From contig CAWEEG010000002.1 of assembly GCA_963808015.1 (NCBI GenBank), forward strand, positions 1,114 to 65,113: DNA of 64,000 nucleotides, read 5' to 3'. The notes beneath the pieces are model-generated. The model was given only the letters and a program-made list of their open reading frames with translations, was not told the origin of the DNA and searched no databases. Made by a program: the position numbers and the translations under genes. The DNA is from an uncultured Actinomycetota bacterium. Lineage in GTDB: Bacteria; Actinomycetota; Acidimicrobiia; Spongiisociales; UBA5794. Every line of letters begins with the position of its first letter. Position 1 is the first letter of the stretch. This document shows, piece after piece, positions 5,693-10,784 of this stretch.

Positions 5693-7157
5693 AAGCCTCT
5701 TTGTGTCAAGTGGTTTGTTTGGGGCGCGTTGATCGAGGCCGGAGTCTTCGGCTGGGGGCGTGTAGGTTTGGTGTCGGGTCCGGGAAGTGACTTATCCGAA
5801 GAGCCGGTGATCAGGATGTGAGGCCGGCCACGTTGGATTCAGTGACGTTCCTGGGTGTCCTTTCCGGACCCATCTTCTGGTTAGTTTTGTGGCGTTGGGC
5901 GTCGGCGACGAGGTGCCGGTAGACGGCATCCGAGATGCGTCGCTTGAGTGCCCGGAGTGCTTCTTTGTTCGTCTTGCCTTCGTCCAGTTTCCGGTCGTAG
6001 TAGATCCGTCCTGGTGTCTGGTGGCGGATCTGGGTGACGGCGGCGCTGTGGATGGCGTGGTTCAACGTGCGGTTCCCGCGTCGTGACAGCCGATGCCGGA
6101 CTTTGCCTCCCGACGACACTTCGATCGGGGCGGTGCCGTTGTATGCGGCATACTTGTCCGCTGTCGTGAACCGGTCGATGGGTGGCGTGTAGCCGACCAG
6201 GAACGCGGCGACGACCGGTCCGACACCGTAGATGTCGGTCACCGACGTGTCTGCTGCAGCGACCGCTGTGCGGATCTGGGCCTTGATCGTTTCGAGGTCC
6301 CGGTCCAAGCGTCGAATGTCCACCAGGTGCGTCTTCGCCATGCAGCGTCGTTGTTCACCGACCGCGTCGAGGCCACGGATCCCTCCGAGCATGCGGGATG
6401 CCTGTTTCGCCGAAAGCCGGTGCCCCATACCGCCCGGGCGCAACACGGCGAGCATCGCGTGGAGGCGACACACCGCCTGGGTCCGCAGCGAAGTGAGCTC
6501 GCGGTGCCGCTTCGCCAACATCCGCAACACCGCCGCTTCGTCCTCTCGATGTACTTCGGCGAGGCCGTCGCGTCGCAACGCGGCGATCGCCACGGAGCGG
6601 GCGTCGTTGTTGTCGTTCTTGTTCGACGTGCCTGACGACAACACCCGGATCCGTGACGCGAGTACGGGTGGCACATCGATCACCGTCTCACCAGTGGCGA
6701 CGAGCTGCTGGGACAGCAGATGTCCCAACCCGGTGGCGGCTTCGACCGCCCACACCCTGGCGTCACCGTTCACCGACCCGGCCCACTCGAGCAGCTTGGT
6801 CGTCTGGTCCTTGTCTGCCCGGATCGTGAACTCGCCGAGCACCGTCTCATCGTCGTCGATCGCGACCGCTGTATGGGTCGCCTTGTGCGGATCGATACCA
6901 ATCGTCGTGACCATCATCAACCTCCTCGTCAGCGGGTCACACAGGTGGCCGTAGTAGGCACTCCTGATCACAACAAACGTCCGCGTTGCCTCGGCGTTCG
7001 CCTCTTTCGAGCCACACCACGACCAGAGGGCTCGACGGGCCGACAATTCGTTACCAAGACACCAACTCGGTGCCAGGCACTTCGAGAGCCAGACCCGCCG
7101 ACACCCCCAACGCTACGGAACCGAATAGTCCCGCAACACCCCCACATCATCAATCAG
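5693..7157 (-). mobile_element. IS110-family element type B, copy 1, inserted in site S5 (halves 5680-5692 and 7158-7172 rejoin as CCCGCCCATAT-CGGCAC-CTATGGGCTAG)
   Basis: Ends AAGCCTCTTTGTGTCAAG...ATCAATCAG are shared with the copy at 9360-10784. Confidence 0.9.
5811..6917 (-). CDS. IS110-family transposase/recombinase (type B1)
   Basis: IGIDPHKATH, WAVEAATGLG, KNDNNDA, TAPIEVSSGG...GNRTLNHAIH...RALKRRISDAVY. Confidence 0.95.
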   Translation of the reverse strand: MMVTTIGIDPHKATHTAVAIDDDETVLGEFTIRADKDQTTKLLEWAGSVNGDARVWAVEAATGLGHLLSQQLVATGETVIDVPPVLASRIRVLSSGTSNKNDNNDARSVAIAALRRDGLAEVHREDEAAVLRMLAKRHRELTSLRTQAVCRLHAMLAVLRPGGMGHRLSAKQASRMLGGIRGLDAVGEQRRCMAKTHLVDIRRLDRDLETIKAQIRTAVAAADTSVTDIYGVGPVVAAFLVGYTPPIDRFTTADKYAAYNGTAPIEVSSGGKVRHRLSRRGNRTLNHAIHSAAVTQIRHQTPGRIYYDRKLDEGKTNKEALRALKRRISDAVYRHLVADAQRHKTNQKMGPERTPRNVTESNVAGLTS

Positions 7158-7277
7158 GCACCTATGGGCTAGCTGAGATTGGGTCTGTATCGCGTGCTTG
7201 GTGGGCGTACGCTGGAGGGTGAACGGAACACGCGGGGTCTCTCAACCGTCGAGGGCAGGGGTGTGTGGAGGTGCGCA

Positions 7278-9218: not shown

Positions 9219-9359
9219 CCACAAGCCCACCCGGCCCGCCCGACCGGCCGAGCGCCCCAACCGAACCCGGAACAGAAAAGACACCCGCCAACGCCGTGCC
9301 GTCATAACAAGAACCTATTCGCACGCCATTGGCCAAACACGCTTCAACCGCCCATATCG

Positions 9360-10784
9360 AAGCCTCTTTGTGTCAAGGGGGTGTTTTGGGGCGCGTGTGG
9401 TGACCCGCTGGCGGAGTGGAGCGGTTGGTCGTAGCGTTGTGGTGAGGGTTCGGGAGTGACCGATCCAAAGAGTCAGCTGTGCAGGATTTGGGCTGGCCGC
9501 GTGGAACTCATGAGGCGTTCCTGGTTGTCCTCCCGGGCCCTCTTGTCAGTTGGCGGCAGCGTCGAGGCGGAGCCTTCGATACACCACGTCTGAGATGCGT
9601 CGCTTCAACGCCCTGATTCCTTCTTTGGAGGTTTTGCCTTCGGCGATCTTGCGGTCGTAGTAGGCGCGTCCTTTGGTGTCGTGTCGGAGCTGGGTGACGG
9701 CAGCGATGTGGATGGCATGGTTGATGATCCGGTTTCCCCGTGGGTTCAACCGGTGCCGAGTCCGACTGCCAGACGATGCTTCGATCGGGGCGGTGCCGTT
9801 ATAGGTGGCATAGTGACCTTTGGTGGGGAACCGGGTGACGTCACCGGTGTAGCCGATGATCGTTGCCGCTCCGATCGCTCCGATCCCGGGAACGTCGGTC
9901 AGTGTCGTGCCAGCAGCGTCAACAGCAGCCGCGATCCGTTTCTTGGATGTCTTCAGAGCACCGTCGAGTCGGACGATGTCTTCGATGATCTCTCGGGCAA
10001 CGAGAACCCGAAGCCGAGCCGGCCTCTTTCCAATGTCGACCTTGTCGAGGAGCTCAGAAGCCTTGGCAGCGTTGATCTTGACGCTGATCCCTCCCGGAGT
10101 GAGCTCTGCCAACAATGCGTGAAGACGGTTCGCAGCCTTGGCCTTGGATTGGGCGAGATCTCGGTGTCGTTTCACCAACACCCGCATCACCGTCACATCA
10201 TTGTCAGGCACGACCTGAGCGAGGCGGTCGGATCGCAACGCAGCTACTGCAACGGAGCGGGCATCGTTCGGGTCGTTCTTCTGTGAACGTCCCGATCCCA
10301 ACAGGCGGACCCGGGACGCCAACACCGGTGGCACATCGAACACCGTCTCACCCGCTGCGATCAACTGACGGGCAACCAAACGGCCAAGACCGTTCGCGGC
10401 CTCGATCGCCCACACACGATCGTCGAAGACTTCGGCCCACTCCACCAGACGGTCAGTCTGACCTGGTGAAGCAGCCAGCTCGAACTCGGCGAGCACTCCC
10501 TCGTTGTCGTCAATAGCAACCGCCGTGTGGGTCGCCTTATGGGGATCGATCCCGATCATCGTCATCACAGCCTCCCTTGGCTCAATCGTGGAACCGAGGT
10601 GGGCACTCCTGATTCGGGTCGATGGTGTTCTCGCCTCTTTCGAGCCACACCCCAGCAAGGACACCAACCGGTCAGCAACTCGACAGGAAGCCAACCTCGA
10701 ACGGTGGCAGGCACATAGAGAGCCGACCGGCCGGCACCTCAGATGCTACGAAACGCCGCAACACCCACCACAAGTATCAATCAG
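9360..10784 (-). mobile_element. IS110-family element type B, copy 2 (diverged), inserted in site S6 (halves 9347-9359 and 10785-10799 rejoin as ACCGCCCATAT-CGGCAC-ATATGCGTGCC)
   Basis: Same end sequences as B1. Confidence 0.9.
9546..10568 (-). CDS. IS110-family transposase/recombinase (type B2)
   Basis: IGIDPHKATH, WAIEAANGLG, KNDPNDA, TAPIEASSG...GNRIINHAIH. Confidence 0.95.
   Translation of the reverse strand: MMTMIGIDPHKATHTAVAIDDNEGVLAEFELAASPGQTDRLVEWAEVFDDRVWAIEAANGLGRLVARQLIAAGETVFDVPPVLASRVRLLGSGRSQKNDPNDARSVAVAALRSDRLAQVVPDNDVTVMRVLVKRHRDLAQSKAKAANRLHALLAELTPGGISVKINAAKASELLDKVDIGKRPARLRVLVAREIIEDIVRLDGALKTSKKRIAAAVDAAGTTLTDVPGIGAIGAATIIGYTGDVTRFPTKGHYATYNGTAPIEASSGSRTRHRLNPRGNRIINHAIHIAAVTQLRHDTKGRAYYDRKIAEGKTSKEGIRALKRRISDVVYRRLRLDAAAN

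What the first reader, a model, noticed from the sequence alone, without database searches (positions are those of the whole stretch)
6918..10784. Two diverged IS110-B copies share donor guides but differ in left-target guide; B2's guide matches its own variant site
Seen in the 5' non-coding ends (minus strand), same order in both copies. Left-target guide: AAGTGCC (B1, +7076-7082) versus TATGTGCC (B2, +10710-10717). Right-target guide: TGTCG(G) (+7040-7045; +10681-10685), pairing with CCGATA via one G:T wobble. Left-donor guide: AAAGAGGC (+7000-7007; +10633-10640). Right-donor guide: ATCAG/AATCAG (+6964-6968; +10609-10614). The junction is AAAGAGGCTT|CTGATT. B2 sits in ATATGTGC|CGATA (8/8 match), while B1 sits in ATAGGTGC|CGATA (partial match). 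Inference: natural guide reprogramming that tracks site variants.
Basis: partly seen in the sequence, partly recalled or inferred. Interest (0 to 1): 0.75.

Follow-up and report, generated by a model that had tools for sequence, protein, structure and literature searches.

The report
Bridge-RNA guides of two IS110 elements
Two distantly related IS110-family jumping genes sit in copies of the same palindromic recombination site, and each carries an upstream guide ("bridge") RNA whose short guides match its insertion site and its own ends; this mechanism has been known since 2024, so the case is a well-documented example, not a new principle.

Summary
B1 (5693-7157, minus) and B2 (9360-10784, minus) are intact IS110-family elements with only 55-58% protein identity. 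Each has a ~220-245 nt 5' non-coding region that folds into stem-loop 1, a target-binding loop and a donor-binding loop.

B1's "right-target guide" TGTCGG lies in the conserved basal stem. The homologous loop segment is UAACGAA (+7048-7054).

- **B2:** its left guide UAUGUGCC(U) equals its left junction, 8/8 (9/9 with the element's first T).
- **B1:** its guide GAAGUGCC matches its flank TAGGTGCC only 6/8.

Across 71 independent insertions of relatives, all four guides covary with flank or element ends. The left guide gives 403/497 matches against 328±6 when shuffled. So natural retargeting is real in the family. Within B1's own clade (n=16) the three distal guide positions show no tracking.

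The target is the 6-bp centre of an 11+6+11 Xer/dif-like palindrome (CCCATA[G/T]|GTGCCG|ATATGGG) that occurs in arrays. Unoccupied copies, including B1's and B2's own left-flank loci in metagenome contigs, read GTGC|CGATA.

Verdict: a new member of a known kind, of modest interest.

The parts
5693..7157 (-). Element B1 (1465 bp), IS110 family, bounded GTGC|CTGATT...GGCTT|CGATA
   Evidence: unoccupied form of its left-flank locus
5811..6914 (-). B1 recombinase gene (367 aa, DEDD RuvC-like + Tnp domains)
6950..7157 (-). B1 bridge-RNA region: stem-loop 1, target-binding loop, donor-binding loop
   Evidence: 23 of 39 consensus pairs have compensatory changes
7076..7084 (-). B1 left-target guide GAAGUGCCU; 6/8 to the site TAGGTGCC (7/9 to the left junction)
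7048..7054 (-). B1 right-target guide by homology, UAACG+AA; pairs with CGATA with one mismatch, and AA pairs with the element's terminal TT
7041..7046 (-).
   Evidence: columns 140-146 paired with 82-87, with compensatory changes
7000..7007 (-). B1 left-donor guide AAAGAGGC, identical to the right-end sequence CAAAGAGGCTT
6964..6969 (-). B1 right-donor guide GAUCAG, antisense to the left end CTGATT (5 Watson-Crick pairs + 1 G:T)
5704..5709 (-). TTGACA (-35-like) in B1's right end, conserved across the family; would face the left end across a circle junction
7158..7170 (-). Left half of B1's target site (GCCCATAGGTGC)
5680..5692 (-). Right half of B1's target site (CGATATGGGCGGG)
9360..10784 (-). 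Element B2 (1425 bp), IS110 family
   Evidence: unoccupied form of its left-flank locus
9546..10565 (-). B2 recombinase gene (339 aa)
10584..10784 (-). B2 bridge-RNA region
10709..10717 (-). B2 left-target guide UAUGUGCCU; 8/8 to the site TATGTGCC, 9/9 to the left junction
10679..10685 (-). B2 right-target guide UGUCG+AG; pairs with CGATA with one G:T
10633..10640 (-). B2 left-donor guide AAAGAGGC
10609..10614 (-). B2 right-donor guide AAUCAG, antisense to CTGATT
10785..10797 (-). Left half of B2's target site (CGCATATGTGC)
9347..9359 (-). Right half of B2's target site (CGATATGGGCGG)

Best explanation
B1 and B2 are two distinct, apparently intact IS110-group insertion sequences. Each encodes a bridge RNA in its left-end non-coding region, upstream of a DEDD/Ser recombinase. 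The RNA has a target-binding loop and a donor-binding loop. In the target-binding loop, the 5' side is the left-target guide, same-sense to the left flank. The 3' side is the right-target guide, antisense to the right flank. In the donor-binding loop, AAAGAGGC is same-sense to the element's right end and (A)AUCAG is antisense to its left end. By analogy with IS621 (inferred, not shown here), the recombinase-RNA complex pairs these guides with a circular RE-LE junction and with a genomic site, and recombines them. The genomic site is the 6-bp centre GTGCCG of an 11+6+11 Xer/dif-like palindrome. The element lands between GTGC and CGATA, and the crossover falls at the single C shared by target (GTGC-C-GATA) and donor junction (GGCTT-C-TGATT). 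The two further nucleotides of each target guide (UG after the left guide, AA/AG after the right guide) match the element's own termini. They therefore fit the integrated junctions better than the empty site, as IS621 handshake guides do. Donor guides are conserved across the family and target guides are variable. B2 is perfectly programmed for the T-variant of the site it occupies. B1 occupies a G-variant site with two left-guide mismatches and one right-guide mismatch. That is within the usual range for natural copies (0-2 mismatches in 64 of 71).
For: Protein family; distant homology to the solved bridge recombinases ISCro4 and IS621 (E 5e-15 and 1.4e-13). RNA structure: z -4.0 and -2.2 for the single folds; the consensus fold of 50 relatives has 23 of 39 pairs with compensatory changes and places the guides in internal loops. 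Guide definitions: PMC11208160 and PMC11208158. Covariation in independent insertions: LTG 403/497 against 328±6.4, with the signal ending exactly at t1; RTG r12-16 163 against 125±6.5; RDG 183 against 164±2.5 and LDG 162 against 154±1.7. The flanks are independent. Column entropy is high at target-guide columns and near zero at donor-guide columns. Unoccupied sites read GTGC|CGATA: two in this genome, about 110 in relatives, at B1's own left-flank locus in four metagenome runs, at B2's in one run, and as paralogous sites in five other host genomes. An RE directly followed by 22 nt of LE (GGCTT|CTGATTGAG) is present in L067. TTGACA is conserved in the right end.
Against: No RNA, circle junction or transposition was observed for these copies. 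RNA-labelled runs cover only the conserved blocks, as DNA runs do. No Rfam family matched. The left-donor guide stops 2 nt short of the crossover, unlike in IS621. Read as in IS621, the guides would predict a CT core and a target GTGC-CT-CGATA that is 2 nt longer than the sites actually found empty. Thirteen such '+2' sites (TT or CT) exist in genomes of the same genus and are not explained by the single-C crossover. B1's clade shows no covariation at the distal left-guide positions.
Confidence: 0.85

Rival explanations
1. The elements use the canonical IS621 geometry. There is a YT core (CT at the left junction, TT at the right), the true target is the 2-nt-longer site GTGC-YT-CGATA, and the circle junction is GGC-YT-GATT. 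The abundant GTGCCGATA sites would then be non-targets.
For: T is invariant immediately before GATT and before CGATA in the family, as reported for T9 in IS621. In this register B2's left guide is 9/9 and its right guide pairs over CT+CGATA. The 4-nt overlap would be GCCT against GCTT, 3 of 4 identical. Thirteen GTGC-TT/CT-CGATA sites exist in same-genus genomes.
Against: B1's and B2's own left-flank loci exist unoccupied as GTGC|CGATA. In five other host genomes the unoccupied paralogous sites have almost only a zero spacer and none has CT or TT. The only RE-LE joint found carries both dinucleotides (GGCTT|CTGATT). Conservative recombination cannot add two bases to the short site.
Confidence: 0.12
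2. The matches are DNA-level subterminal repeats bound by the transposase, or chance, and are not RNA guides.
For: The donor guides repeat the element's own ends, as protein-binding subterminal repeats would. No transcript was shown.
Against: The target guides covary with host flanking DNA that is not part of the element. The motifs sit in internal loops of a structure supported by compensatory changes. Left guides are same-sense and right guides antisense, exactly as in IS621. Chance expectation for the 9-mer is 0.07 per window.
Confidence: 0.03

Closest known systems
IS621 / IS110-group bridge RNA elements (Durrant et al. 2024, PMC11208160; Hiraizumi et al. 2024, PMC11208158)
   Same: Same recombinase family. 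The non-coding RNA is upstream of the gene. There are two internal loops carrying LTG/RTG and LDG/RDG with the same strand logic. The left-target guide is 8-9 nt and the right-target guide is short. Donor guides are conserved and target guides variable. Extra guide nucleotides match the partner DNA after exchange (handshake). There is a -35 box in the right end.
   Different: Only distant protein similarity (E 1e-13, C-terminal domain only). The crossover appears to be a shared C (CC in the target, TC in the donor) and not CT. The left-donor guide does not reach the crossover. The target is a Xer-type palindrome.
seekRNA elements, IS1111 family and ISEc21 (Siddiquee et al. 2024, PMC11187229)
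   Same: RNA-guided DEDD transposases with site-specific insertion, no target duplication once one copy of the shared bases is assigned to the IS, and a junction promoter.
   Different: IS1111 members carry the RNA downstream of the gene and have subterminal inverted repeats. B1 and B2 have it upstream.
IS1111-attC group (Tetu & Holmes 2008; Post & Hall 2009, cited in PMC11187229) and the ISAjo2/IS1202 family that targets pdif (PMC10132070)
   Same: Insertion sequences specialised on the recombination sites of gene-cassette or module arrays.
   Different: Those target integron attC sites or Acinetobacter pdif sites. IS1202 is a DDE family without an RNA guide. Here IS110-group elements hit the central 6 bp of a Xer-like site in Acidimicrobiia-type MAGs.
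ISPpu10 (bioRxiv 10.64898/2026.03.19.712850)
   Same: A bridge-RNA IS110 element whose natural target is a repeated palindromic or hairpin-forming intergenic sequence.
   Different: ISPpu10 is reported to lack the 5' stem-loop and to need a target DNA hairpin. B1 and B2 keep stem-loop 1, and any hairpin requirement was not tested.

Membership tests
IS110 family (IS110 group) bridge-RNA insertion sequences | DEDD RuvC-like N-terminal domain plus Tnp (Ser) C-terminal domain recombinase | tested here: met
   Pfam PF01548 + PF02371. NCBIfam NF033542 is above its cutoff for both. D8, E58, D101, D104 and S267/S268 are invariant between B1 and B2.
IS110 family (IS110 group) bridge-RNA insertion sequences | Long non-coding region upstream (not downstream) of the recombinase gene | tested here: met
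   243 nt (B1) and 219 nt (B2) lie between the left end and the ATG; 118 and 186 nt lie downstream.
IS110 family (IS110 group) bridge-RNA insertion sequences | Conserved RNA fold with two internal loops (target-binding and donor-binding) | tested here: met
   RNAalifold on 50 sequences gives 39 pairs, 23 with compensatory changes. The inner stem of the donor loop was not recovered in the consensus.
IS110 family (IS110 group) bridge-RNA insertion sequences | Loop guides covary with the flanking target (LTG same-sense, RTG antisense) | tested here: met
   The exception is B1's clade at t1-3.
IS110 family (IS110 group) bridge-RNA insertion sequences | Loop guides covary with the element's own ends (LDG, RDG) | tested here: met
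   Examples: AAACAGGC guides with AAACAGGC ends; UAUCAG, AAUUAG and CAUCAG guides with CTGATA, CTAATT and CTGATG ends.
IS110 family (IS110 group) bridge-RNA insertion sequences | CT core dinucleotide shared by target and donor | tested here: inconclusive
   CT and TT stand at the junctions, but unoccupied sites lack them. A shared C is the only common base at the crossover.
IS110 family (IS110 group) bridge-RNA insertion sequences | The RNA is expressed, binds the recombinase and is required for recombination | not testable with these tools
   RNA-run contigs cover only conserved blocks, as DNA runs do.
Rfam-curated RNA family | Match to a covariance model at the gathering score | tested here: not met
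   No Rfam 15 family matched anywhere in the window.

The most novel reading that the evidence does not exclude
This IS110 lineage may recombine in two registers that are 2 nt apart. It inserts into the 6-bp centre of Xer-type cassette sites at a shared C, so the empty site carries no CT core and the extra guide nucleotides act as handshake guides for the element's own termini. It can leave by an IS621-like YT register, which would scar the site as GTGC-YT-CGATA. That would explain the 13 '+2' sites confined to the host genus. In parallel, the distal left-guide positions t1 and t3 would be mutational hot spots that retarget near-identical copies. L008 and L009 are 99% identical, and their only two 5'-region differences fall on t1 and t3.
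Probability: 0.25. Interest if true: 0.55.

Novelty: new member of a known kind. Interest (0 to 1): 0.33.

Why it matters
It gives a clean natural example of bridge-RNA programming in uncultured Actinomycetota (Acidimicrobiia-type MAGs from salt-marsh and other sediments). All four guides are validated by covariation in about 70 independent insertions.

It also shows that RNA-guided IS110 elements have specialised on the crossover region of a Xer-like cassette-array site. This parallels IS1111-attC in integrons.

For engineering, the family offers orthologues with an apparently non-CT crossover and a left guide whose three distal positions tolerate mismatches. Both features bear on specificity design. 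None of this changes the known mechanism.

Tried and rejected
- **Rfam scan of the window:** no family matched.
- **IS621-style CT-core reading:** I adopted it at first because B2's guide is 9/9 with CT. I demoted it after finding unoccupied sites without the dinucleotide.
- **Search for circle or tandem junctions (CAAAGAGGC-N0-6-GATTGA):** no match in 151 related genomes. The only RE-LE joint found is in L067.
- **Laying Logan contigs on the right end to catch junctions:** uninformative, because contigs run over the ends of the stretch.
- **RNA-labelled runs:** coverage follows sequence conservation, as it does in DNA runs, so it is no evidence of expression.
- **C32:14918-14975, a weak hit to the B1 leader:** no IS110-like coding sequence was found on C32 and the surrounding sequence shows nothing element-like, so I treated it as chance.
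rejected as part of a stem.
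Full report
**What is there.** The interval holds two IS110-family elements on the minus strand. B1 spans 5693-7157 and B2 spans 9360-10784.

- Each has one recombinase gene with Pfam DEDD_Tnp_IS110 and Transposase_20.
- Each scores above NCBIfam's cutoff for 'IS110 family RNA-guided transposase'.
- B2's protein is a distant relative of the solved bridge recombinases ISCro4 and IS621.
- The two proteins are only 55-58% identical, and MAFFT's mean column identity for the two DNA stretches is 80%. 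They are two different IS species of one subgroup, not diverged copies of one IS.
- Their termini are conserved: CTGATTGAT at the left end and CTTGACACAAAGAGGCTT at the right end.

**The RNA.** The 5' non-coding regions fold better than shuffled controls (z -4.0 and -2.2). I fetched 80 homologous loci, mostly from Acidimicrobiia and other Actinomycetota MAGs, and aligned their left ends.

A consensus fold of 50 of them gives stem-loop 1, a target-binding stem-loop and a donor-binding stem. Of 39 predicted pairs, 23 keep pairing through changes on both sides.

Durrant et al. define left guides as pairing with the bottom strand, so they read like the top strand. Right guides pair with the top strand (PMC11208160). 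The motifs here follow that logic.

| Guide | B1 | B2 |
|---|---|---|
| Left-target | GAAGUGCCU, +7076-7084 | UAUGUGCCU, +10709-10717 |
| Left-donor | AAAGAGGC, +7000-7007 | AAAGAGGC, +10633-10640 |
| Right-donor | GAUCAG, +6964-6969 | AAUCAG, +10609-10614 |
| Right-target | UAACGAA, +7048-7054 (by homology) | UGUCGAG, +10679-10685 |

- TATGTGCCT occurs only twice in the window, at B2's guide and at B2's left junction, against 0.07 expected.
- The one error is B1's right-target guide. TGTCGG (+7041-7046) is the 3' strand of the basal stem (columns 140-146), which is conserved in B1's clade whatever the right flank.
- The true B1 segment UAACGAA pairs with CGATA with one A:A mismatch.

I used 71 distinct insertions. 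Their outer flanks are unrelated except for one trio.

| Guide | Observed | Shuffled |
|---|---|---|
| Left-target, t1-7 | 403/497 | 328±6.4 (max 352 in 20,000) |
| Right-target, r12-16 (Watson-Crick) | 163 | 125±6.5 |
| Right-donor | 183 | 164±2.5 |
| Left-donor | 162 | 154±1.7 |

- The left-guide excess stops exactly one base beyond t1.
- Rare guide variants (CCGUC, GGGCC, GCGCC, CUGCC) sit beside the matching rare flanks.
- Target-guide columns have high entropy and donor-guide columns almost none.

Natural retargeting is therefore real in this family. That same covariation is how bridge RNAs were found, so it is confirmation and not discovery.

**B1 against B2.**
- B2 is among the 12 of 71 elements with a perfect t1-7 match.
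- B1 has two mismatches (t1, t3), like 18 of 71.
- B1's guide fits the G-variant no better than the T-variant of the site.
- In B1's clade (16 distinct insertions), t1-3 show no covariation (21/48 against 19.8±2.3) and no member is perfect. The other clades give 93/144 against 58.7±4.7.
- Position t3, the one that distinguishes the two sites, is the least constrained in the family (45% matched).

So 'B2 matches its variant site' is true. 'The guides track the site variants' is not shown by this pair.

One hint of fast guide change: L008 and L009, in one MAG, differ at 15 of 1470 positions. Two of those are t1 and t3 of the left guide, and they are the only differences in the 5' region. Both copies nevertheless lie in the same kind of site.

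**The target.** Both elements split a palindrome, CCCGCCCATA[G/T] GTGCCG ATATGGGCGGG (11+6+11), between GTGC and CGATA. Evidence on the intact site:
- Intact copies occur at window 15469 and on contig C4.
- About 110 copies occur in 31 of 151 related genomes. They are often in arrays a few hundred bp to a few kb apart, for example G016:C5, G091:C287 and G033:C7.
- A Xer-like tyrosine recombinase gene (10835-11752) lies next to B2's site.

Evidence that the empty site is the short form GTGC|CGATA:
- Contigs from four metagenome runs join B1's left flank directly to ...GATATGGGCGG with nothing in between.
- One run does the same for B2's left flank.
- In five other host genomes, the unoccupied paralogues of other family members' sites are again GTGC|CG.

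**An unresolved point.** Read as in IS621, the guides (left ...GUGC-CU, right UAUCG-AR) predict a CT core and a target 2 nt longer than the empty sites.

The simplest reconciliation is that the crossover is at the one base common to target and donor, the C in GTGC-C-GATA and GGCTT-C-TGATT. The extra guide bases would then match the element's own terminal TG and TT. That is the behaviour of the handshake guides described for IS621 (PMC11208158).

Points in favour:
- The base after the right-donor guide switches from G to A in the three elements whose target has T instead of C before the crossover (L059, L066, L068).
- L067 carries a right end directly followed by 22 nt of left end, GGCTT|CTGATTGAG.

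Point against a complete explanation: 13 sites reading GTGC-TT/CT-CGATA exist, all in genomes of the host genus. They could be scars of excision in an IS621-like register or the true targets. I could not decide, because no circle junction was found.

**Not shown.** Transcription, RNA-protein binding and transposition were not observed. RNA-labelled runs were uninformative.

**Verdict.** This is a new member of a known kind, of modest interest, with two side issues worth a bench test: the crossover register, and the unconstrained distal guide positions in B1's clade.

Noticed in passing
window 5680-16140; relatives G016:C5, G091:C287, G033:C7: The target palindrome (11-bp arms, 6-bp centre GTGCCG) occurs in arrays a few hundred bp to a few kb apart, next to a Xer-like recombinase gene (10835-11752). 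This looks like a chromosomal dif-module or integron-like cassette array in this lineage. The left arm is more variable than the right.
   Followed up: partly
G002, G004, G005, G013, G018, G019, G020: Thirteen copies of the site carry 2 (once 3) extra bases at the centre, always TT or CT (GTGC-YT-CGATA), and only in the host genus. Other odd centres also occur: TG in G000:C53:138-157, and AGC/TGC in G091. They may be scars left by insertion sequences.
   Followed up: partly
L067:2718-2755: A full element is followed directly by the first 22 nt of its own left end (GGCTT|CTGATTGAGTCGAGGGTGCGTT) and then by unrelated DNA. This is a tandem or circle-junction-like remnant.
   Followed up: partly
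L008 and L009 (same MAG): Two copies are 99% identical. Their only differences in the 5' non-coding region are positions t1 and t3 of the left-target guide (CAG against UAU). Both lie in CCCATGGGTGC sites that match neither guide.
   Followed up: partly
window 7157 leftwards, against metagenome contigs: In four runs, the DNA left of B1's left-flank cassette is not the window's sequence. It is an intact site followed by ...GTCCCGATACGGTCTCAGGG. The neighbouring cassette therefore differs between the MAG and the dominant population. This could be cassette shuffling, or a mis-join of the assembly across the repeated IS.
   Followed up: no
genome contig C53:1300-1432: A solitary right-end fragment of a B-type element (…CTTCACACAAAGAGGCTT|CGATATGACCG), with no recombinase gene upstream.
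   Followed up: no
window 13086, 14662, 16126, 3922, 20328: Right halves of the same site abut the ends of other elements (…ACCTGAAATCACAGC| and …ACACACACCCAGCC|). Several unrelated mobile elements therefore use the same 6-bp centre.
   Followed up: no
L014, L022, L083 left flanks: Three relatives share a left flank, CTTGACACGGCCCGCTCCCTCATGAATGCC, that itself looks like the right end of another IS110-type element (TTGACA box). Their left guides match it poorly (2-4 mismatches at t1-7).
   Followed up: no
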